In this document: piece after piece, positions 8,888 to 17,651 of the stretch | Position numbering within the stretch: the stretch's first letter is position 1 | Layout of the letters: every line of letters begins with the position of its first letter | Assembly: GCA_017429835.1 (NCBI GenBank) | Contig: JAFROD010000020.1 | Span: 27,927-59,926 of the forward strand | DNA: 32,000 nucleotides | Direction of reading: 5' to 3' | Source of the DNA: Oscillospiraceae bacterium | Lineage (GTDB): Bacteria; Bacillota; Clostridia; Oscillospirales; Oscillospiraceae | Position numbers and translations under genes: made by a program | Notes under the pieces: generated by a model | Database searches by the model: none | What the model was told of the DNA's origin: nothing | What the model saw: only the letters and a program-made list of their open reading frames with translations

Positions 8888-9688
8888 ATGGAACAGACAT
8901 ATTTATGCGGGACGATCCGCGAGCGGCTGCAGGATCTGATGAAATCCAGGAAGGTATCGCAGGCGGAACTTGCTACGAGGATCGGCTGCACGGAGAGTAT
9001 GCTGAGCCGCTTCATCAGCGGCAGGACGGATAAACTCGGCGACGAGAGCATCATCCGCATCGCGCGCGTGTTCAACGTCTCCACCGACTTCCTGCTCGGC
9101 GAAACCGACGTGCCCGACCGCGTGACCTACGACATTTCCGAACTCGGACTCTCCGTACAGGCAGCGCGAAATCTCTACACGCAGAAGGTCAATCCGAAGG
9201 TGGTGAACGCCCTGTTGGAGAATCCGGAATTCGCCGAAACGACGGAGCTGATCTATGGCTATCTGAACGACGAATTTGCGAAGGGCTTCGCGCTGCAGAA
9301 CGAACTATATTCGCTCGTCGGCGGGATGGTGCAGGGCGTGCCGGAAGCGGCTGCGGACGTCAGGCGGCTGGAGATGCCGCCGCACCAGTTCGACCTGACG
9401 CGGATTCAGGAATCGTTTATGGCGGCGGTCCGCTCGGTCAAAAACGAGGTCGGCTGCGACCTGAACGCCGACAACGAATTGACGGCGCAGATGATGAAAC
9501 GGATCTATGCCGAGGTGGCGAAAGGGCAGCGCCGGCGGCAGAAAAAAGTTTCGCCGAAGGACGTCGGCGCGGCGATCGCGAAGGCACTGCGGCTTCCGCC
9601 CGGCGAAAAAACGCAGGCGATCATTCAGCAGTTTCTGAATCTGACCGAGGCGGTCGCGAACGATGAAACGGGAAGAACTGTCCAATGA
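8888..9688 (+). CDS. XRE-family helix-turn-helix transcriptional regulator
   Basis: IRERLQDLMKSRKVSQAELATRIGCTESMLSRFISG is a typical HTH_3 region. Confidence 0.8.
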   Translation: MEQTYLCGTIRERLQDLMKSRKVSQAELATRIGCTESMLSRFISGRTDKLGDESIIRIARVFNVSTDFLLGETDVPDRVTYDISELGLSVQAARNLYTQKVNPKVVNALLENPEFAETTELIYGYLNDEFAKGFALQNELYSLVGGMVQGVPEAAADVRRLEMPPHQFDLTRIQESFMAAVRSVKNEVGCDLNADNELTAQMMKRIYAEVAKGQRRRQKKVSPKDVGAAIAKALRLPPGEKTQAIIQQFLNLTEAVANDETGRTVQ

Positions 9689-10301
9689 GGAACTCTGCGC
9701 GCTGGCGAAAAACGGCGACGCCGACGCGCTGGAGCAGCTCGTAAAAAACAATCTCCCGTTCATCAAAAAACGCGCGAAAGAAATCTGGGAATCGAAGCAG
9801 GCGCTGAACGAAACGCTGGGCGTCGACCGCGACGATCTGGAGCAGGAAGGCGCGATCGGATTGCTCAACTGCGTCGAAAAGTTTCAGCCCGAGCGCGGTT
9901 TCAAATTCCTGACCTATGCCGCGCCGGCGATTCGGAACGCGATGTATGATTATTTCGATGTGCAGGAAGCTGTCTTTGAAAAACGCGACGTGGATCTCGT
10001 AGATTCGCTGGATGAAATCGTGCGCGACGAGTGGACGACCAGGCACAATTTGCTTCCCGACCCGACGCGCAAAACGCCGGAACAAATCTATCTGAAGAAG
10101 GAATGGCTCGGCGAAATACATTGCGCACTGGACGCGGTTTCGGTCAGAGAAAATCAGTACCTGCGCTACCGCTTCGGCTTCGAGGACGAGACTGCGCATC
10201 CGCTGATCGAGACGGCAATTCATTTTCATCTTTCCGAAAGCCGCGCGAAAACTACGGAGAGGTCTGCGCTGAAAAACGTGCGATCGGCGCTGCCGTGGTG
10301 A
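9663..10301 (+). CDS. Sigma-70-family RNA polymerase sigma factor (regions 2 and 4)
   Basis: DDLEQEGAIGLLNCVEKFQPERGFKFLTYAAPAIRNAM resembles region 2. The C-terminal LSVRENQYLRYRFG...ETAIHFHLSESRAKTTERSALKNV resembles region 4. It overlaps the XRE gene by 26 nt. Confidence 0.78.
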   Translation: MKREELSNEELCALAKNGDADALEQLVKNNLPFIKKRAKEIWESKQALNETLGVDRDDLEQEGAIGLLNCVEKFQPERGFKFLTYAAPAIRNAMYDYFDVQEAVFEKRDVDLVDSLDEIVRDEWTTRHNLLPDPTRKTPEQIYLKKEWLGEIHCALDAVSVRENQYLRYRFGFEDETAHPLIETAIHFHLSESRAKTTERSALKNVRSALPW

Positions 10302-10663
10302 AAGCGAAAGCTGCGTCGCTGCGGCGGGTTTTATATCCCTTTTGCGCCCACGGCGAGGCGCCGCCGCTGCGGTCTGCGACCTCCGCTTCGCCGCCTCACC
10401 TGCGCCAGAAGGGCGGGCATTCGTCAGCGTGCGCGCTTCCGAATACCCGCCCTTCTTCTGCCGCGGAAAACGTGCTGTTGTCGTCGTCACAAGCTCCGTA
10501 TCGTTCGTCCTGCCGCAAGCGGCAGGACTCATTCACTCCGCTGTTCCTCCTCTCCCCACAAAACTTCGTTTTGCGGGGACCCCATCGCAGCAGCACCTTT
10601 TCCGCGTCCGCGGCCGCAAAAGGTATAACACACTAGACCTTGCGGGCAAGGTCGTGTGCCAAT

Positions 10664-10722
10664 GGGACGCCGTCCCCTTTGGATTCCCCCGCCAACGAAA
10701 CAGGTGTTTCTTTGGATTCTTC
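10664..10722 (+). repeat. Copy A of a duplicated module of about 57 nt: a GC hairpin followed by a 10-bp hairpin
   Basis: GGGACGCCGTCCCCTTTGGATTCCCCCGCCAACGAAACAGGTGTTTCTTTGGATTCTTC. The internal stem is CCAACGAAAC / GTTTCTTTGG with a 4-nt loop. Confidence 0.8.
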
Positions 10723-10777
10723 CCCGCAACAGAATTGTGAACGCAGCCGTCCTCACTCCCAATTCCGCTGTCCAAAA

Positions 10778-10833
10778 GGGCGCCGCCCCTTTACAATCCC
10801 CGCCAACGAAACCGGTGTTTCTTTGGAATCTTC
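10778..10833 (+). repeat. Copy B of the duplicated module
   Basis: GGGCGCCGCCCCTTTACAATCCCCGCCAACGAAACCGGTGTTTCTTTGGAATCTTC. It has the same two-hairpin layout and lies about 113 nt downstream of copy A. Confidence 0.8.
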
Positions 10834-10960
10834 ACGCAAAAAATATCGGAGCGAGACCAATGTGCTCCGAGATTTTTCTGCACAACCTATTATGGAGAAA
10901 AGAGAATATGAAAAGCGTCAAAGCAATGGCATTGCCTTTATGCTTGCCCCATGGTAGAAT

Positions 10961-11082
10961 AAAAAAGAAAAGAGCCCTATGAAAAGGACTCTAATCTTTC
11001 GCACACACTGTGCAGCCGGACAAGCCGACGAGTTGAGAATTCTTTTATTTGAACTCGTAGTGTAATTGCAGAGGTCATCTGC
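10961..11082 (-). ncRNA. tracrRNA: tracrRNA (anti-repeat, nexus-like stem, hairpin, intrinsic terminator)
   Basis: The minus strand reads GACCUCUGCAAUUACACUACGAGUUCAAAU. It pairs with the CRISPR repeat as a lower stem (GUUUGAG with UUCAAAU), a bulge, a perfect 10-bp upper stem (UAGUGUAAUU/AAUUACACUA) and a further 7 bp (AGAGGUC/GACCUCU). GGCUUGUCC follows, resembling the GGCUAGUCC nexus of S. pyogenes tracrRNA. Then comes the hairpin GCACA/UGUGC and the terminator AGAGUCC-UUUUCAU-GGGCUCU plus a U-run. The 5' end is inferred from the promoter only. Confidence 0.8.
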
Positions 11083-11088
11083 ATTATC

Positions 11089-11117
11089 AATATAAATCAT
11101 TATTTGGAGGATGTCAA
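11089..11117 (-). promoter_or_regulatory. Promoter of tracrRNA, overlapping the cas9 translation-initiation region on the opposite strand
   Basis: Minus strand TTGACA (11117-11112), 17-nt spacer, TATATT (11094-11089). Confidence 0.65.
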
Positions 11118-11118
11118 T

Positions 11119-14100
11119 ATGAGCGACGAAATTCTGCAGTATTTTTTTGGAATTGATATTGGAACAGACTCTGTTGGATATGCGGCGACGAGCAAAGAAT
11201 ACGACCTGTTAAAGTATCGCGGGGAGCCGGTCTGGGGCGTTCAGACCTTCGAGGCTGCCTCTGCTGCGGAAGATCGCCGTGTGAATCGGACAGCCCGCAG
11301 AAGACTGGACCGGCGGCAGCAGCGCGTTCGGCTGATCAATGAGATTTTTGCTCCCGCGATCTGCAAGAACGATCCAAATTTCTTCATTCGCCGCAAAGAG
11401 AGCGCACTGTTCAAAGAGGACGCGCAGCACGGCGTGCATCTTTTTGAGGGCGGAATTAGCGACAAGCAATTCCATAAGGAGTATCCCACGATTCATCACC
11501 TGATCGTTGACCTGATGAGATCCGATGCGCCGAAGGACGTGCGTCTTGTTTATCTGGCGTGCGCATGGCTTGTGGCAAATCGCGGACATTTCCTCTTTGC
11601 GGCAGACTCCGGGAACGTGGATGATTTTTCCGTGCCGTATCAGGAGTTCGCGGACATATGCCACAACGACTATGAATGCGGTCTGCCGTGGTCGGACGCG
11701 ACTGCGCCGGATACGGTTCTGGAAGTGATGCAGGCAGAGCTCGGCGTCACGAAGAAAACAGCACTGTTTGTCGAAAAAGTCTGCGGTGGGAAGAAGCCCT
11801 CCAAAAAACTTGAGGAAGACTGCCCGTTCCGAAGGGACTTGATCATCACCCTCCTCGCAGGCGGCAAGGCCTCAATGAAAGACCTGTTTGCCAATGAGGA
11901 ATATGGGGAACTGGATTCTCTCTCGCTGGGAATGGAGGAGGAAGCCTTTGATGCGATCCTGGCGGAGCTCGGCGATGATGGAGCGCTCGTCCGCGCCTTG
12001 CGGAAACTGTACGATTGCGCCTTGCTGAAGAAAACGCTCCGCGGCTACACGTACATATCCGATGCGAAAATCGCCGTCTATGAACAGCATGCGAAGGATC
12101 TGAAATGGCTCAAGCAGTTTATTCGCAAATACAAGCCCGGGGACTATGCCAGAGTGTTCCGTCGGGCGGAAGCGGGAAACTACGTCGCATACTCCTACAA
12201 CGTCAAAAGCTGCTCTGCGCCGCAGGAAATAAAGAAGAAAGCAAATAAGACCGTCTTCTGCGATTATCTAAAAAAGATCGTTGAAAAGACAGACGTCGCG
12301 CCGGAAGATCAGGAACGCTATGATGATATGATGTCGCGGCTGTCCCTGTATACGTTTCTCCCGAAGCAGAAGGACACCGATAACCGCGTGATCCCGCAGC
12401 AGCTCTACCGCTGCGAACTTGCTCAGATACTGTCCCAGGCAAAGCGCTATCTTCCGATGCTGACCGAGAAAGATGCGGACGGTCTCACGAACGAGCAAAA
12501 GATCCTGTCCGTTTTCGATTTCCGCATCCCATACTACGTCGGGCCGCTGAATCCCGCATCCTCGCACGCCTGGATCGTGCGCAAGGCGGGAAATATCTAT
12601 CCGTGGAACTTTGAGAAGATGGTCGATCTGGACGCCAGCGAGCAGGCGTTCATCAACCGTATGACCAACACCTGCACCTACCTGCCCGGAGAGGACGTCC
12701 TTCCGTATTGCTCGCTGCTTTACAGCCGTTTTATAGTGCTGAATGAGATCAACAATCTGAAGATCAACCAGCAGCCGATCCCAGTGGAGGTCAAGCAGGC
12801 GATCTATACAGACTTGTTTGAAAACGGAACGAAGAAAAAGATCACGAAGAAAGCCGTTTGCGACTATCTGAAAAGCCGCGGCTATCTGAAACCGTCGGAC
12901 GAGATCAGCGGCGTTGACAATACCCTGAACGCAAACTTGAATTCCTACCACTGCTTCAAACGACTGCTGGAATCCGGCACGCTGTCTGAGGAGCAGGTCG
13001 AAAGCATCATCGACCATGCTGCCTATTCCGAGGACAGGCTCCGCATGAGCAGATGGCTTGAGCGGGAATACCCCAATCTTTCCGCGGCGGACCGCAAGTA
13101 TATCCTGAGCCTGAAGTTGAAAGAATTCGGCAGACTGTCGCGGAAACTCTTGACGGGAATCTACGGCTGCAAGAAGAACGGCACGGGCGAAGCGTTCACG
13201 ATCATGGACGCCCTGTGGCAGACTAACGACAATTTGATGCAGCTGCTGTCGGAGAACTACACATTCAAAGATCAGATTTCCGACTTTGCGGAGAGCTATT
13301 ATGCTGATCCGAAGAACAAGAAAACGCTGTCCGAACGACTCTCGGATATGTATGTATCCAATGCGGTCAAGCGCCCCATTATCCGTGCGCTGGATATCGT
13401 TTCCGACGTCGTCAAGGCGGTCGGCTGTGCGCCGCAGAAGATCTTCGTAGAAATGGCAAGAGGCGGCACGCCGGATCAAAAGGGAAAGCGGACGGTTACG
13501 CGCAAACAGCAGATCCTCGATTTGTATAAGCAGGTCAAGCACGAGGACTTGCCGAAACTGAAGCAGCAGCTGGAAGATATGGGCGAAATGGCGAACAACC
13601 GTCTGCAGAGCGACAAGCTCTTCCTGTACTATATGCAGCTTGGCAGATGTATGTATTCGGGTGAAAGTATCGATCTGAGCCGTCTGACCACCGACACCTA
13701 TGACATCGACCATATCTATCCGCAGTCGAAGGTGAAAGACGACAGCATTAACAACCGCATTCTGGTGCTTTCCTCTGCGAACGGCGTAAAGAGCGACCGT
13801 TATCCGGTCGAGGCCTCCGTGCGCGCAAAAATGGGAGAGTTCTGGGATTATCTGCATAAGAACGGCTTGATTTCCGACGAGAAGTATGCGCGTCTGACCA
13901 GAACGACCGGCTTTACCGACGACGAGCTCCATCAGTTCATCAACCGTCAGTTAGTCGAGACGCGCCAGTCCACGAAGGTCGTGGCGCAGCTCCTGAAAGA
14001 ACGCTATCCCGACACGGAGATCGTATACGTCAAAGCGGGGATGGTCTCCGAATTCCGTCAGGAATTCGAGATGCTGAAATGTCGCACGGTCAACGATCTG

Positions 14101-15201
14101 CACCACGCGAAGGATGCCTATCTGAATATCGTAGTTGGCAACGTCTACCACGAGAAATTCACACGCCGATGGTTCGATACGACGCAGAAGTACAACGTTT
14201 CCGTCAAAAAGACGTTCGATAGGGAACAGAAACCTTACGGCAATCTCGTCTGGCGCGGCGCGGAGGACCTCGCGAAGGTACGGAAGATCATGGGCAAAAA
14301 CGCCGCGCACGTGACGCAGTACGCGATTTGCAAACACCGCGGGCAAAATGGTGGATTCTATGATCAGAATCCGCTGAAAGCGAAAGCCGGCTTGATTCCG
14401 CGCAAAGATGGATTGGATACCGAAAAATACGGCGGCTACAACGGCTTAACGACTACGTTCTTCACGCTCGTCAGTTTTACCAACGGTAAAAAGAAGGAAC
14501 TGATGTTCTTCCCCGTGGATCTCCTTTATTGCGAGAAATTTGTTAGCGATCCTGCTTTTGCGACGGCCTACGTTGCGAAGACTTTGAATGAGGCAAACAA
14601 AAAAGCAGACGATATCATATTCCCACTGGGAAGCCGCGTTCTGAAAGTCAATACTGTCCTTTCTCTTGACGGATTCCTGGTCTGCCTTGCGTCCGGCTCT
14701 GTAAAGGACGGCAGAGTGGGCTTCCTTCCTCTGACGCAGTTCGTCTGCGGGTATGAGACCGAGCGGTATATCAAACGGCTGGAACGCCTTAGCGAAAAGG
14801 TTAAGGCTTATCCGAAGTATACTGCTTCTGCGGAGTATGATGGCGTATCGGCGGAGCAGAACGCGAAACTCTTTGACCTATATATTGAAAAACTGACAAA
14901 ATCTGTATTCTCTAAGCGACCTGGCGTGAACGTTGCTGCGTTAGTTGAAAAACGCGACACGTTTTTGGCGCTTCCGCTGGAGCAGCAATGTGCGTCCTTG
15001 CTGAAAATGCATATGATTTTTGCTAGGCAGCCCAATGACGTCGACCTGTCTGATATCGGCCTTGGGAGCAGAGTGTTCAAAGCAAGAAAAAGCATGTTTT
15101 TGTCCGGATGGAAGATAGAATACAGCGAAGTCCGGATTATCGATCAGTCCTCCTCCGGGTTGTTCGCTTCACAAAGCAGAAACCTTCTGGACCTGTTATG
15201 A
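11119..15201 (+). CDS. cas9: Cas9 endonuclease (type II effector), catalytic motifs intact
   Basis: RuvC-I FGIDIGTDSVGYA, arginine-rich bridge helix RTARRRLDRRQQR, HNH YDIDHIYPQS...NNRILV, and RuvC-III DLHHAKDAYLNIV. ATG at 11119 lies 8 nt after GGAGG (11106-11110). The longest ORF begins at TTG 11104. Confidence 0.97.
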   Translation: MSDEILQYFFGIDIGTDSVGYAATSKEYDLLKYRGEPVWGVQTFEAASAAEDRRVNRTARRRLDRRQQRVRLINEIFAPAICKNDPNFFIRRKESALFKEDAQHGVHLFEGGISDKQFHKEYPTIHHLIVDLMRSDAPKDVRLVYLACAWLVANRGHFLFAADSGNVDDFSVPYQEFADICHNDYECGLPWSDATAPDTVLEVMQAELGVTKKTALFVEKVCGGKKPSKKLEEDCPFRRDLIITLLAGGKASMKDLFANEEYGELDSLSLGMEEEAFDAILAELGDDGALVRALRKLYDCALLKKTLRGYTYISDAKIAVYEQHAKDLKWLKQFIRKYKPGDYARVFRRAEAGNYVAYSYNVKSCSAPQEIKKKANKTVFCDYLKKIVEKTDVAPEDQERYDDMMSRLSLYTFLPKQKDTDNRVIPQQLYRCELAQILSQAKRYLPMLTEKDADGLTNEQKILSVFDFRIPYYVGPLNPASSHAWIVRKAGNIYPWNFEKMVDLDASEQAFINRMTNTCTYLPGEDVLPYCSLLYSRFIVLNEINNLKINQQPIPVEVKQAIYTDLFENGTKKKITKKAVCDYLKSRGYLKPSDEISGVDNTLNANLNSYHCFKRLLESGTLSEEQVESIIDHAAYSEDRLRMSRWLEREYPNLSAADRKYILSLKLKEFGRLSRKLLTGIYGCKKNGTGEAFTIMDALWQTNDNLMQLLSENYTFKDQISDFAESYYADPKNKKTLSERLSDMYVSNAVKRPIIRALDIVSDVVKAVGCAPQKIFVEMARGGTPDQKGKRTVTRKQQILDLYKQVKHEDLPKLKQQLEDMGEMANNRLQSDKLFLYYMQLGRCMYSGESIDLSRLTTDTYDIDHIYPQSKVKDDSINNRILVLSSANGVKSDRYPVEASVRAKMGEFWDYLHKNGLISDEKYARLTRTTGFTDDELHQFINRQLVETRQSTKVVAQLLKERYPDTEIVYVKAGMVSEFRQEFEMLKCRTVNDLHHAKDAYLNIVVGNVYHEKFTRRWFDTTQKYNVSVKKTFDREQKPYGNLVWRGAEDLAKVRKIMGKNAAHVTQYAICKHRGQNGGFYDQNPLKAKAGLIPRKDGLDTEKYGGYNGLTTTFFTLVSFTNGKKKELMFFPVDLLYCEKFVSDPAFATAYVAKTLNEANKKADDIIFPLGSRVLKVNTVLSLDGFLVCLASGSVKDGRVGFLPLTQFVCGYETERYIKRLERLSEKVKAYPKYTASAEYDGVSAEQNAKLFDLYIEKLTKSVFSKRPGVNVAALVEKRDTFLALPLEQQCASLLKMHMIFARQPNDVDLSDIGLGSRVFKARKSMFLSGWKIEYSEVRIIDQSSSGLFASQSRNLLDLL

Positions 15202-15689
15202 GTTGGCGCATTGTCGTTGTTTCCGAGCGCTGCAAACTGGATCTGAAAATGGGCTATATGGTCATCCGCGGAGAAGAAACGAGGCGGATTTTTCTGGATG
15301 AGATCGCGATCCTTATGATAGAAAATCCTGCAGTCGCGTTGACCGGGTGTCTGTTGGAAAAACTGACGGAGAAGAAGATTCGCGTCATCTTTTGTGACAC
15401 GAAGAGATCGCCGATTGCGGAGCTCGCCCCGCTCCATGGCAGTCACGATACGCCGCGCAAACTGCAGCAGCAGCTTGCGTGGCGTGAGGAAATAAAGGGG
15501 GCCGTTTGGAGCGCGATCATTGCAGATAAGATTTCAAAGCAGGCGCAGCTGCTGGCAGAGAAGAAAAAGCAAAAAGAAGCGCTGCTTCTCGAATCCTATC
15601 TGCCGCAGATCGAGAACGAACAGGGAAGGACACGCGGCGAAACTATGGTGCAGCATACACCATTGTTTGAGAGTAGTGTAATTCCGTAG
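15198..15689 (+). pseudogene. cas1: Truncated cas1: only the N-terminal ~155 codons remain, and the frame reads into CRISPR repeat 1
   Basis: MSWRIVVVSERCKLDLKMGYMVIRG...IRVIFCDTKRSPIAEL...QLAWREEIKGAVWSAIIADKI matches the N-terminal half of type II Cas1. Its ATG overlaps the cas9 stop (ATGA). Homology stops at ...TPLF, where repeat 1 begins (15665). Type II Cas1 proteins run to roughly 290-300 aa (from memory). Confidence 0.85.
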
Positions 15690-16360
15690 AGGTCTAAAAC
15701 AAGCTCCGACACGTTGACCGTCTGATAGTAGTTTGAGAGTAGTGTAATTCTGTAGAGGTCTAAAACTGTTTTTTCGGACTGCGTGAACCACTCGGTGTTT
15801 GAGAGTAGTGTAATTCTGTAGAGGTCTAAAACTAGCCCGCGGATTTCATCCTCCGTCAGCCCGTTTGAGAGTAGTGTAATTCTGTAGAGGTCTAAAACCT
15901 GCTTGGCATAGACCGAGACGGCGTGATGGTTTGAGAGTAGTGTAATTCTGTAGAGGTCTAAAACCAGGTGATCGACGTCCGCTTTCGGCACATAGTTTGA
16001 GAGTAGTGTAATTCTGTAGAGGTCTAAAACATTGTTTATTCGCCAGTGCTTTATGACGATGTTTGAGAGTAGTGTAATTCTGTAGAGGTCTAAAACTGCT
16101 GTGTCCGGATGTAATAGCAGATCGCGGTTTGAGAGTAGTGTAATTCTGTAGAGGTCTAAAACGCATCGTCTGCTCCTTTCTGCGCTTCAAGCGTTTGAGA
16201 GTAGTGTAATTCTGTAGAGGTCTAAAACATTGAGCCTGAGCCAACGCGCCTGAGCTGTGTTTGAGAGTAGTGTAATTCCGTAGAGGTCTAAAACTTTGCG
16301 CCGCCGCGCCTCTACGGAGGTAAGGTTTGAGAGTAGTGTAATTCCGTAGAGGTCTAAACC
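15665..16360 (+). CRISPR. CRISPR array: 11 repeats of 36 bp and 10 spacers of exactly 30 bp, on a 66-bp period
   Basis: The repeat is GTTTGAGAGTAGTGTAATTCTGTAGAGGTCTAAAAC. Repeats start at 15665, 15731, 15797, 15863, 15929, 15995, 16061, 16127, 16193, 16259 and 16325. Repeats 1, 10 and 11 carry C instead of T at position 20. The last repeat ends ...TAAACC, so it is degenerate. Orientation follows the GTTT...AAAC convention, tracrRNA pairing and the distal degenerate repeat. Confidence 0.98.
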
Positions 16361-16401
16361 CGTTTTCCCTTGAAAGCAATTCTTCTGATGAGGTAGAGCA
16401 A

Positions 16402-17019
16402 ATGAAAAACCCTGTGAGCAAACAGGATAAGCAGGCAACGAATCAAAAGCGCCGCCACATAAAAAGGTCTCCCGCTGCATTCGAAGCTGCATTTCAGCAA
16501 AGGATAGGTTTGACGCCGACTCAATGGGTAAAAACCAAAATTGAAAACGGCTCAAGGAAAGATGACGTTAAGTATCTTTTTGAAATATGTGCTGAAGAAA
16601 TTGCGAACGAGAACAATTGTAAGGCGCAGCGCTTTGAACGGTATTACGATCCCGGTATGGTAAAGAAAGAAGGGAAAACAGTGAGACCAAACGCCCCTAA
16701 GTTTTATAACAAACTGGTCCGGGATCTCATTCCCGAAATCATTGAAAAGAGCGGCAAGCGATGCGTTTGCGAAACGCTTTCTCAGGAACAGTACATTGTT
16801 ATGTTGGACGCCAAGCTGAACGAAGAACTCGCAGAATATCAACAGAGCAAATCCCTAGAGGAGCTGGCCGACCTGCTTGAGGTTATGGGCGCAGTCGTTC
16901 ACGCAAGAGGATATACATGGTCACAGCTCACCGAAACCAGAAAGAAGAAGTTAAGTGAGCGCGGCGGTTTTGAAAAGCGCATATTGCTGAAAGAAGTTTA
17001 CGAGGATAATACGAAATAA
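16402..17019 (+). CDS. MazG-like / PRA-PH-like all-alpha NTP pyrophosphohydrolase with an unusual ~100-aa basic N-terminal extension
   Basis: The C-terminal ~100 aa (FYNKLVRDLIPEII...EELAEY...EELADLLEVMGAV...KKKLSERGGFEKRILLKEV) matches the short house-cleaning NTP-PPase family. Start ATG 16402 follows GAGGTAGAGCAA. An internal start at MVKKEG is possible. Confidence 0.7.
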   Translation: MKNPVSKQDKQATNQKRRHIKRSPAAFEAAFQQRIGLTPTQWVKTKIENGSRKDDVKYLFEICAEEIANENNCKAQRFERYYDPGMVKKEGKTVRPNAPKFYNKLVRDLIPEIIEKSGKRCVCETLSQEQYIVMLDAKLNEELAEYQQSKSLEELADLLEVMGAVVHARGYTWSQLTETRKKKLSERGGFEKRILLKEVYEDNTK

Positions 17020-17050
17020 TCTTGGTCGGATATGAGCAATAACGAATAAT

Positions 17051-17084
17051 GAGAGACACCGCAAATGACGGCGTCTCTCATTTT
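17051..17084 (+). terminator. Hairpin terminator between convergent genes
   Basis: GAGAGACACCG / CGGCGTCTCTC stem with one mismatch and a 7-nt loop, followed by ATTTT. Confidence 0.55.
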
Positions 17085-17299
17085 GTTACATTGTCATTAT
17101 TGCGCTTGAGTGGGATGATATGCGGTGCGCTAGTTTCTTCCGAGTCAGGCGAGCTGTCGATATAAACCTCCTCGGCGGACAATAAAGCAGCACGCAGCTT
17201 TTCAACTTCGAAATGCGCCAGAGGAATCCGTTCCAACGGATCAATGACATCGTCGATCGCTGCGCATAAGATCATATACATTTTTCTATAGTCAGCCAT
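17078..17299 (-). CDS. Small hypothetical protein, divergent from the XRE gene
   Basis: 73-aa ORF beginning at an ATG. No family recognised. Confidence 0.5.
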   Translation of the reverse strand: MADYRKMYMILCAAIDDVIDPLERIPLAHFEVEKLRAALLSAEEVYIDSSPDSEETSAPHIIPLKRNNDNVTK

Positions 17300-17408
17300 A
17301 GGATCGCCTTCAATAATAGTCTATGTATAGCCCAATAGTAGCACGCATAGCCTAAAAAGTCCAGCGATTTTGGGTATTCTATCTTCAGAAATAAATGGAG
17401 GTAGGGCT

Positions 17409-17651
17409 ATGGATACGATCTCGGCAGTCAAAAACCGCATCCTGCAACTGTGCGAGGAACGGAATATGAGCATCAACAAGCTCTCCACGGTATGTGCGCT
17501 GCCGCCATCCAGCATCAAGAACATTCTGTACGGCAAAAGTCAGAATCCGAAACTGCTTACAATCAAAATGATCTGCGACGGTCTGGACATCACACTCGCG
17601 GAGTTCTTCTCCACCACGGAGTTCAACGAGTTGGAGCAGGAAATAAAATAG
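17409..17651 (+). CDS. Small XRE-family HTH protein
   Basis: ATG at 17409 follows GGAGGTAGGGCT. IKNRILQLCEERNMSINKLSTVCALPPSSIKNILYG is an HTH_3-type region. Confidence 0.78.
   Translation: MDTISAVKNRILQLCEERNMSINKLSTVCALPPSSIKNILYGKSQNPKLLTIKMICDGLDITLAEFFSTTEFNELEQEIK

What the first reader, a model, noticed from the sequence alone, without database searches (positions are those of the whole stretch)
15198..15700. cas1 is truncated and fused directly to CRISPR repeat 1, leaving a Cas9 locus without an adaptation module or leader
Seen: the Cas1-like frame starts with an ATGA overlap on cas9 and keeps only the N-terminal half. Its last conserved residues (..TPLF) are encoded by ...CCATTGTTTG, which runs into GTTTGAGAG of repeat 1. 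No cas2, csn2 or cas4 is present, and there is no AT-rich leader between the cas genes and the array. Cas9 motifs, the tracrRNA and 10 unique spacers are intact.

Inference: a deletion removed the 3' half of cas1, cas2, any fourth gene, the leader and possibly some leader-proximal spacers. It may have occurred through microhomology between a cas1 ..TTGTTTGG.. (LFG) site and a repeat. The locus would then be fixed for interference only. crRNA expression would depend on read-through from cas9 or on a weak repeat-internal -10-like box (TGTAAT at repeat positions 13-18).
Basis: partly seen in the sequence, partly recalled or inferred. Interest (0 to 1): 0.6.

Follow-up and report, generated by a model that had tools for sequence, protein, structure and literature searches.

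The report
Decayed Cas9 locus without adaptation genes
A deletion removed the spacer-acquisition genes and the leader from this gut bacterium's Cas9 CRISPR locus, leaving half a cas1 gene joined almost directly to the array; partial CRISPR loci like this are well known, and the mildly notable point is that relatives lost the same genes through other deletions.

Summary
cas9 (11119-15201) overlaps by ATGA a cas1 frame that matches only the N-terminal half of type II Cas1 and runs into repeat 1 (15665). cas2, csn2 and the leader are missing.

Relatives with the same repeat family have cas9-cas1(289 aa)-cas2-csn2, then a ~75-nt leader ending ATTTGAG, then the array. So this is a deletion of a type II-A adaptation module.

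- 'TPLF' is out of frame. An extra 11-nt deletion at 15614/15615 shifts the frame. The last real Cas1 motif is NREGHAAK (15619-15642).
- About 22 nt of unexplained DNA (15643-15664) lie between cas1 and repeat 1. The proposed LFG/repeat microhomology is not supported.
- A sister allele has the same junction without the 11-nt deletion. The truncation is therefore older, and the remnant is still decaying.

The junction ORF occurs on 7 contigs of other assemblies, so it is not an artefact. A lineage with 97% identical Cas9 has a different deletion (cas1 codon 111 to mid-csn2, leader kept). At least three more relatives have other deletions.

Cas9 is under purifying selection, the tracrRNA is intact, and spacer 4 matches a phage terminase gene. 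The genome's only cas1-cas2 belongs to a type I-C system. This is probably a frozen, interference-only locus. Its crRNA expression is untested.

The parts
10962..11082 (-). Predicted tracrRNA: anti-repeat at about 11045-11077, then hairpins and an intrinsic terminator.
   Evidence: A repeat-like sequence on the + strand at about 11048-11076. Terminator 10992-10971 followed by a T run. Fold -42.8 kcal/mol, z -4.06. Duplex with the repeat -34.3 kcal/mol over repeat positions 1-31. 185 nt are 100% identical in L028, against 95.8% for the surrounding block. No Rfam match.
11089..11117 (-). Promoter-like site for the tracrRNA (TTGACA-17-TATATT). It overlaps the cas9 ribosome-binding site.
   Evidence: 11 of 12 consensus matches. 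This is a consensus match only.
11119..15201 (+). cas9, 1360 aa counted from ATG 11119. The frame is open from TTG 11104, and GGAGGA lies at 11106-11111.
   Evidence: TIGR01865, 870 bits, full profile. Full-length match to a solved Cas9, 9jwk_A, E 1e-194, with the RuvC-I DIGT and HNH DIDH motifs present. dN/dS 0.096 against L028. The exact protein is seen on 7 contigs.
15198..15689 (+). cas1 pseudogene ORF of 163 codons. Codons 1-139 are Cas1. The rest is frameshifted sequence that reads through the junction into repeat 1.
   Evidence: 77% identity to residues 1-146 of an intact 289-aa Cas1. No conserved short-Cas1 family exists.
15614..15615 (+). Site of a secondary 11-nt deletion in the cas1 remnant. 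It removes most of the codons for FRDE and causes a frameshift.
   Evidence: The sister allele P0123 reads ..PQIEFRDETNREGHAAK.., while the window reads ..PQIE|NEQGRTRGE. DNA alignment to five intact cas1 genes shows an 11-column gap.
15619..15642 (+). Last recognisable Cas1 sequence, NREGHAAK (the motif with the catalytic Glu). It is out of frame with the start of the ORF.
15643..15664 (+). Junction DNA of unknown origin, 22 nt (the first 4 nt may still be cas1). Its size and position fit the 3' part of a 30-nt spacer cut by the deletion.
   Evidence: It is not the leader: relatives end in ATTTGAG, the window ends in ACACCATT. No match in relatives above shuffled controls. No match in IMG/VR. 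The single 14-mer elsewhere in the genome does not extend.
15665..16360 (+). CRISPR array: 11 repeats of 36 nt and 10 spacers of 30 nt. The last repeat (16325-16360) is degenerate, ending AAACC.
   Evidence: It is the only array with this repeat in the genome. Spacer 4 (15899-15928) matches a viral contig 30/30 and a prophage TerL gene 29/30.

Best explanation
This is a type II-A CRISPR-Cas locus that lost its adaptation module through a deletion of about 1.5-2 kb.

Shown:
- The left end of the deletion lies in cas1 at about codon 152-154.
- The right end lies just upstream of a complete repeat, most simply inside a spacer.
- The 3' half of cas1, cas2, csn2, the ~75-nt leader with its leader-anchoring sequence, and an unknown number of leader-proximal units were removed.
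- What remains of cas1 is a pseudogene. It lacks the C-terminal catalytic domain.
- In this lineage the remnant has since taken a further 11-nt frameshifting deletion.
- cas9 and the tracrRNA gene are intact.

Inferred:
- Interference still works. cas9 transcription reads through the 464-nt cas1 remnant into the array, since no terminator-like site lies in that interval. The tracrRNA pairs with the repeats, and Cas9 uses the 10 fixed spacers.
- New spacers cannot be added, because there is no type II integrase, no Csn2 and no leader-anchoring sequence.
For: - Eleven related loci (Cas9 35-58% identical) were found in species genomes. Those with an intact module have cas9-cas1(289 aa)-cas2(106 aa)-csn2(221 aa), a leader and the same GTTTGAGAG..AAAC repeat family.
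- The leader ends in ATTTGAG in 14 of 15 relatives. The window has neither leader nor csn2 nor cas2.
- The window's cas1 is 77% identical to residues 1-146 of an intact relative, then stops matching.
- The 163-aa junction-spanning ORF is on 7 contigs of other assemblies. A 164-aa sister allele without the 11-nt deletion reads NREGHAAKLWCSIHHCLRVV* into the same repeat.
- L027 and L028 (Cas9 97% identical, 95.8% nt identity over 6.5 kb) carry a different deletion. It joins cas1 codon 111 to csn2 at about residue 126 and keeps the leader. Neither state can be derived from the other.
- Evidence for retained interference: cas9 dN/dS is 0.096. The Cas9 proteins that appear to go with the two junction-sharing alleles differ at 59 residues and both are full length. 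The tracrRNA region is 100% conserved. No + strand terminator-like site lies between 15201 and 15665. Spacer 4 matches a phage TerL gene.
- The only cas1-cas2 elsewhere belongs to a complete type I-C system on contig C28. Its repeat is unrelated and is 33 nt long as read from the sequence.
Against: - No promoter-like site was found for the array. The consensus scan gives none between 15201 and 15665, so expression of pre-crRNA is an inference.
- One member of the same 90% Cas9 cluster has cas9 split into 912 + 460 aa. Decay of the whole locus does therefore happen in this population, though that case could also be an assembly error.
- The link between the sister cas1 allele P0123 and Cas9 P0247 rests only on identical contig statistics: 2 contigs, longest 5540 nt.
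- dN/dS between the window and L028 mostly reflects history before the deletions.
- The origin of the 22 junction bases is unresolved.
Confidence: 0.85

Rival explanations
1. The whole locus is functionally dead. Without a leader promoter the array is not transcribed usefully, and cas9 and the tracrRNA are only recently orphaned and on their way to decay.
For: No promoter-like site lies upstream of the array. The cas1 remnant is visibly decaying. One related lineage has a split cas9.
Against: cas9 dN/dS is 0.096. cas9 is full length in 8 of 9 cluster lineages, including two that seem to share the junction yet differ at 59 residues. The tracrRNA with its promoter and terminator is 100% conserved over 185 nt inside a block that is 95.8% identical. 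No terminator-like site lies between cas9 and the array.
Confidence: 0.2
2. One reading: the deletion joined the cas1 LFG codons (TTGTTTGG) directly to GTTTGAG of a repeat by microhomology, so TPLF is the true end of Cas1.
For: Some relatives do encode LFG as TTGTTTGG about 18 nt after the AAK codons (L022). With a 2-residue gap, PLF falls level with A(I/L)F of intact Cas1 in a BLASTP alignment.
Against: In the true Cas1 frame, as kept in sister allele P0123, the text after NREGHAAK is LWCSIHHCL against VYFNAIFGM. That is 0 of 9 identical. The interval from AAK to TTGTTT is 20 nt instead of 15 and does not align. Of the LF codons, all but two T's belong to the repeat itself.
Confidence: 0.08
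3. The short Cas1 N-terminal protein is kept because it does something, for example as a regulator or as a partner of Cas9.
For: The first 139 codons are open in both alleles, with only 4 amino-acid differences. The ATGA coupling to cas9 is retained.
Against: The C-terminal tails differ by a frameshift between the two alleles. The L028 lineage truncates at codon 111 with an unrelated out-of-frame tail. No conserved family of short Cas1 proteins exists beyond this one cluster; the other short hits are 87% identical or less and mostly sit on short contigs. The catalytic domain and Cas2 are absent.
Confidence: 0.07
4. Assembly artefact: the region between cas1 and the array was collapsed by the assembler.
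For: CRISPR arrays are repetitive and often misassembled.
Against: The junction lies mid-contig in a 93.6-kb contig. The left side (cas1) is not repetitive. The exact junction-spanning ORF occurs on 7 Logan or ENA contigs, and a variant on 2 more.
Confidence: 0.02
5. The type I-C Cas1-Cas2(-Cas4) encoded on contig C28 adds spacers to this array in trans.
For: It is the only integrase in the genome, and it is complete.
Against: Its repeat is unrelated in sequence and differs in length, 33 nt as read against 36 nt. No leader or leader-anchoring sequence lies at the type II array. All 10 spacers are 30 nt, as in type II-A relatives.
Confidence: 0.03

Closest known systems
Canonical type II-A CRISPR-Cas loci (cas9-cas1-cas2-csn2-leader-array with a divergent tracrRNA, as in Streptococcus pyogenes or S. 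thermophilus CRISPR3)
   Same: Large Cas9 of 1360 aa. tracrRNA upstream on the opposite strand. 36-nt repeats of the form GTTT..AAAC with 30-nt spacers. Relatives have csn2 and a leader ending in ATTTGAG. A 7-nt leader-anchoring sequence with a conserved terminal GAG is described in PMC7999890. That the S. pyogenes motif is exactly ATTTGAG is from my own memory of McGinn and Marraffini 2016.
   Different: Here cas2, csn2, the leader and half of cas1 are deleted, so the array is joined to a cas1 pseudogene.
Partial or atypical CRISPR-Cas loci that lack their own adaptation module (surveyed in PMC7145637)
   Same: Interference genes and an array without a cognate cas1-cas2, in a genome that holds another CRISPR-Cas type.
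   Different: In the complex loci described there, different types usually share one adaptation module and have compatible repeats. Here the other system (I-C) is on another contig with an unrelated repeat, and the deletion scar is still visible.
Sister deletion alleles in relatives: L027/L028 (cas1 codon 111 to csn2), L019, L020, and the in-frame Cas1(1-156)-Csn2(115-221) fusion P0131
   Same: Loss of part of cas1, cas2 and/or csn2 next to an intact cas9 and the same repeat family.
   Different: The endpoints differ. L027/L028, L020 and probably P0131 keep the 3' end of csn2 (and L027/L028 and L020 the leader). The window and L019 lost the leader and are joined near a repeat.

Membership tests
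Type II-A CRISPR-Cas | Cas9 effector with RuvC and HNH nuclease domains | tested here: met
   TIGR01865, 870 bits, full length. Full-length alignment to solved Cas9 9jwk_A. DIGT and DIDH motifs present.
Type II-A CRISPR-Cas | tracrRNA with an anti-repeat complementary to the repeat | tested here: met
   Predicted only. Duplex -34.3 kcal/mol. Promoter-like and terminator-like sites present. Fold z -4.06. No Rfam hit.
Type II-A CRISPR-Cas | csn2 as the subtype signature gene | tested here: not met
   Absent from the window and from the genome by tblastn. The Pfam search of the genome had no positive control. Present in relatives that share the repeat family and the Cas9 clade. The subtype is therefore assigned by descent.
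Type II-A CRISPR-Cas | cas1-cas2 adaptation genes in the locus | tested here: not met
   cas1 covers only profile positions 1-140 of 278 and is frameshifted. There is no type II cas2.
Type II-A CRISPR-Cas | Leader whose 3' end is a leader-anchoring sequence (..GAG) next to repeat 1 | tested here: not met
   Relatives end in ATTTGAG (14 of 15). The window has ACACCATT.
Cas1 integrase (functional) | C-terminal alpha-helical catalytic domain with the His and Asp metal ligands | tested here: not met
   No match beyond profile position 140. The Glu motif NREG is out of frame.

The most novel reading that the evidence does not exclude
Loss of the adaptation module may be selected rather than neutral in this clade of Cas9 loci. 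According to earlier notes of this scan, which I did not test, the locus is cargo of a mobile island. Repeated independent deletions would then freeze a useful anti-phage spacer set while removing the self-targeting risk of spacer acquisition. Leaderless arrays would be expressed by read-through from cas9. Processing at repeat 1 would also yield an eleventh guide from the 20 nt of junction DNA, which may be a former spacer.
Probability: 0.15. Interest if true: 0.5.

Novelty: new member of a known kind. Interest (0 to 1): 0.3.

Why it matters
Mostly it matters for annotation. The 163-codon 'Cas1' is a pseudogene, and the locus should not be counted as adaptation-competent.

The population-level picture has modest wider interest:
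- two alleles share one junction;
- a 97%-identical Cas9 lineage carries a different deletion;
- further deletions occur in other relatives.

Together these form a small natural series for asking how long Cas9 interference persists after adaptation is lost. They also allow asking whether an array with no leader can be expressed by read-through. One caution applies to any claim that cas9 is preferentially retained: all loci were found by searching with Cas9, so that result is ascertainment-biased.

Tried and rejected
I could not fetch DNA for the sister allele P0123 or for the closest intact Cas1 proteins (P0003-P0005, 83% identical). Exact endpoints and dN/dS between the junction-sharing alleles could therefore not be computed.
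- A csn2 origin for the 22 junction bases looked possible by eye (15 of 20 matches to the L028 csn2 3' region). Local alignment against all relatives scored no better than shuffled sequence, so I rejected it.
- Leader origin of the junction bases: rejected.
- Templated filler copied from elsewhere in the genome: only one 14-mer match, which does not extend.
- The junction bases in IMG/VR: no match.
- Array against GenBank phages: no spacer match.
- Rfam gave nothing for the tracrRNA.
- A first regex scan for the anti-repeat timed out.
- A Pfam Csn2 search of the genome had no positive control. I replaced it with tblastn and with a Pfam hit on the L028 fragment.
- My first Cas9 cluster look-up used wrong start codons. 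I repeated it correctly.
- A 26/30 self-match of spacer 5 on contig C42 was judged chance or a diverged homologue.
Full report
**What is in the sequence**

- cas9 is open from 11104. The likely start is ATG 11119, preceded by GGAGGA. It ends with TGA at 15199-15201.
- It matches the Cas9 equivalog TIGR01865 over the whole profile (870 bits). It also aligns end to end with a solved Cas9 (9jwk_A, E 1e-194).
- A second frame starts at 15198 within ATGA. Its 163 codons match type II Cas1 (TIGR03639) only at profile positions 1-140 of 278. The score of 112 bits is below the 120-bit cut-off.
- This frame runs into the first CRISPR repeat, which begins at 15665, and stops inside it.
- The array has 11 repeats of 36 nt and 10 different 30-nt spacers. 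The last repeat is degenerate.
- This repeat occurs nowhere else in the 2.35-Mb genome, which is rated 100% complete.

**What the intact form looks like**

- A scan of species genomes with Cas9 found 11 loci, 35-58% identical. A metagenome scan found 34 more.
- Nearly all that extend far enough read cas9, cas1 (289 aa), cas2 (106 aa), csn2 (about 221 aa), a leader of about 75 nt, and then an array of the same repeat family in the same orientation with a degenerate distal repeat.
- The last seven leader bases are ATTTGAG in 14 of 15 relatives.
- This fits the 7-nt leader-anchoring sequence with terminal GAG that directs polarised integration in type II systems (PMC7999890).
- The window has ..ACACCATT in that place.
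- The locus is therefore a type II-A locus that lost about 1.5-2 kb: the 3' half of cas1, cas2, csn2 and the leader.

- tblastn with intact Cas1 proteins matches the window at 77% identity for residues 1-146. The conserved NREGHAAK motif, however, sits in the +1 frame.
- The DNA alignment shows an 11-base gap right after ..CAG ATC GAG, between 15614 and 15615.
- The tail 'GRTRGETMVQHTPLF' is therefore frameshifted sequence, and 'TPLF' is not Cas1.
- An exact look-up in the protein collection found the 163-aa ORF on 7 contigs from Logan and ENA assemblies.
- The same cluster holds a 164-aa sister, P0123, on 2 contigs. P0123 reads ..PQIEFRDETNREGHAAKLWCSIHHCLRVV*.
- P0123 is the same cas1-to-repeat junction without the 11-nt deletion.
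- The big deletion therefore came first and is shared by two diverged alleles (4 differences in 139 residues). The frameshift is later decay in the window's lineage.
- This also disposes of an assembly artefact.

**The junction**

- Cas1 homology ends at AAA (15640-15642), or perhaps four bases later.
- The 22 nt up to the repeat (15643-15664) do not align with cas1. In the true frame LWCSIHHCL stands against VYFNAIFGM.
- They are not the leader.
- They have no match in relatives above shuffled controls, none in IMG/VR, and only one non-extending 14-mer elsewhere in the genome.
- The simplest reading is inference only: the right endpoint fell inside a 30-nt spacer.
- L019, another leaderless relative, likewise has 16 unexplained bases between its truncated csn2 and a complete repeat.

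**Independent deletions in relatives**

- L027 and L028 are two JGI metagenome contigs. Their Cas9 is 97% identical, and they share 95.8% nucleotide identity with the window from about 8888 to 15530 and again downstream of the array.
- In them, cas1 codons 1-111 are joined out of frame to the C-terminal part of csn2 (Pfam Cas_Csn2 positions 89-180).
- That is followed by an intact leader ending ATTTGAG and 11 spacers, none shared with the window.
- The window keeps cas1 codons 112-152, which they lack. They keep csn2 and the leader, which the window lacks. The two deletions are therefore independent.
- Further deletions are seen in three other relatives:
  - L019: cas1 residues 1-46, cas2, csn2 residues 7-52, then a repeat.
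  - L020: only csn2 residues 100-220 plus the leader.
  - P0131: an in-frame Cas1(1-156)-Csn2(115-221) fusion.
- All of these loci were found by searching with Cas9, so retention of cas9 is partly a matter of ascertainment.

**Is the rest alive?**

- Between the window and L028, cas9 has dN/dS 0.096 with dS 0.16.
- dS is uneven: 0.06-0.08 in the first two thirds, 0.37 in the last third and 0.54 in the cas1 remnant. This points to recombination within the locus.
- The 90% Cas9 cluster has 10 members. Eight are full length or nearly so. The other two are the 912-aa and 460-aa pieces of one split gene on a single contig.
- The Cas9 that appears to accompany P0123 differs from the window's at 59 residues and is also full length. 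This link rests on identical contig statistics only.
- The tracrRNA lies on the minus strand at about 11082-10962. It has a TTGACA-17-TATATT promoter-like site and a terminator.
- Its fold has z -4.06, and its duplex with the repeat is -34.3 kcal/mol. The region is 100% identical in L028 over 185 nt.
- Spacer 4 matches an IMG/VR viral contig 30/30. It matches the terminase large-subunit gene of a prophage in another genus of the family 29/30.
- No promoter-like or terminator-like site lies on the + strand between the cas9 stop and the array. Read-through from cas9 is thus the most economical route to pre-crRNA, but this is inferred and not shown.
- The repeat-internal TGTAAT has G at the second position of the hexamer and is shared by relatives that have leaders. 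It is weak evidence at best.

**Adaptation in trans**

- The genome has only one other cas1 and cas2. They belong to a complete type I-C system (cas3, cas5c, cas8c, cas7, cas4, cas1, cas2) on contig C28.
- That system's repeat is unrelated and is 33 nt long as read from the sequence.
- With no leader-anchoring sequence at the type II array, cross-use is unlikely.

**Verdict**

- This is a real deletion scar in an otherwise ordinary type II-A locus. Partial CRISPR-Cas loci are well known (for example PMC7145637).
- What goes beyond routine is the documented order of events (deletion, then frameshift) and the set of independent deletions in close relatives.
- Earlier notes of this scan place the locus in the cargo region of a mobile island inserted in spoVT.
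- I tested that only as far as seeing synteny with L027 and L028 end at about 8888 and 17651.

Noticed in passing
window 15665-16360: Repeat position 21 is C in repeats 1, 10 and 11 and T in repeats 2-9. C is also the state in several relatives (L016-L018, L021), while all L027/L028 repeats have T. New repeats are copied from the leader-proximal one, so the present repeat 1 was probably not the template for repeats 2-9. This fits a rearrangement or recombination at the junction.
   Followed up: partly
window 14200-15530 compared with L028: Synonymous divergence from the sister lineage jumps from about 0.07 in the first two thirds of cas9 to 0.37 in the last third and 0.54 in the cas1 remnant. 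The last 136 residues of the window's Cas9 differ at 12-13 positions from every other cluster member compared. The locus is a recombination mosaic.
   Followed up: partly
Cas9 cluster members P0250 and P0251 (one Logan contig of 8671 nt): In one lineage of the same 90% Cas9 cluster, cas9 is split into 912 + 460 aa by a frameshift near residue 897, in the HNH region. It could be real decay or an assembly error.
   Followed up: no
L027 8741-8776 and L028 7569-7604, compared with window 16325-16401: In the sister lineage the last repeat is cut after ..GTAGAGGT and joined to AGAGCAA-ATG of the downstream gene. This looks like a deletion between two GAGGT copies that removed the trailer. The arrays share no spacer.
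   Followed up: no
window 8888 and 17651: Synteny with L027 and L028 covers only about 8888-17651. That stretch holds an XRE-type HTH gene, a sigma-70-like gene, a GC-rich spacer region, the tracrRNA, cas9, the array, a 205-aa ORF and a small HTH gene. The flanks differ, as expected for a module in a variable cargo region.
   Followed up: partly
window 16402-17019: The 205-aa ORF 41 nt after the array has no Pfam or NCBIfam hit. It is conserved next to the array in L027 and L028.
   Followed up: no
G000 contig C28:3596-12070 (L004): A complete type I-C CRISPR-Cas system with an array of about 11-12 repeats. Several repeats are degenerate toward the distal end.
   Followed up: partly
L020, L028 and P0131: Three independent deletions have their right end in csn2 between residues 100 and 126 and keep the 3' end of csn2; L020 and L028 also keep the leader (not seen for P0131, which is known only as a protein). 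This may hint that the crRNA promoter region must be kept, or it may be chance with n = 3.
   Followed up: no
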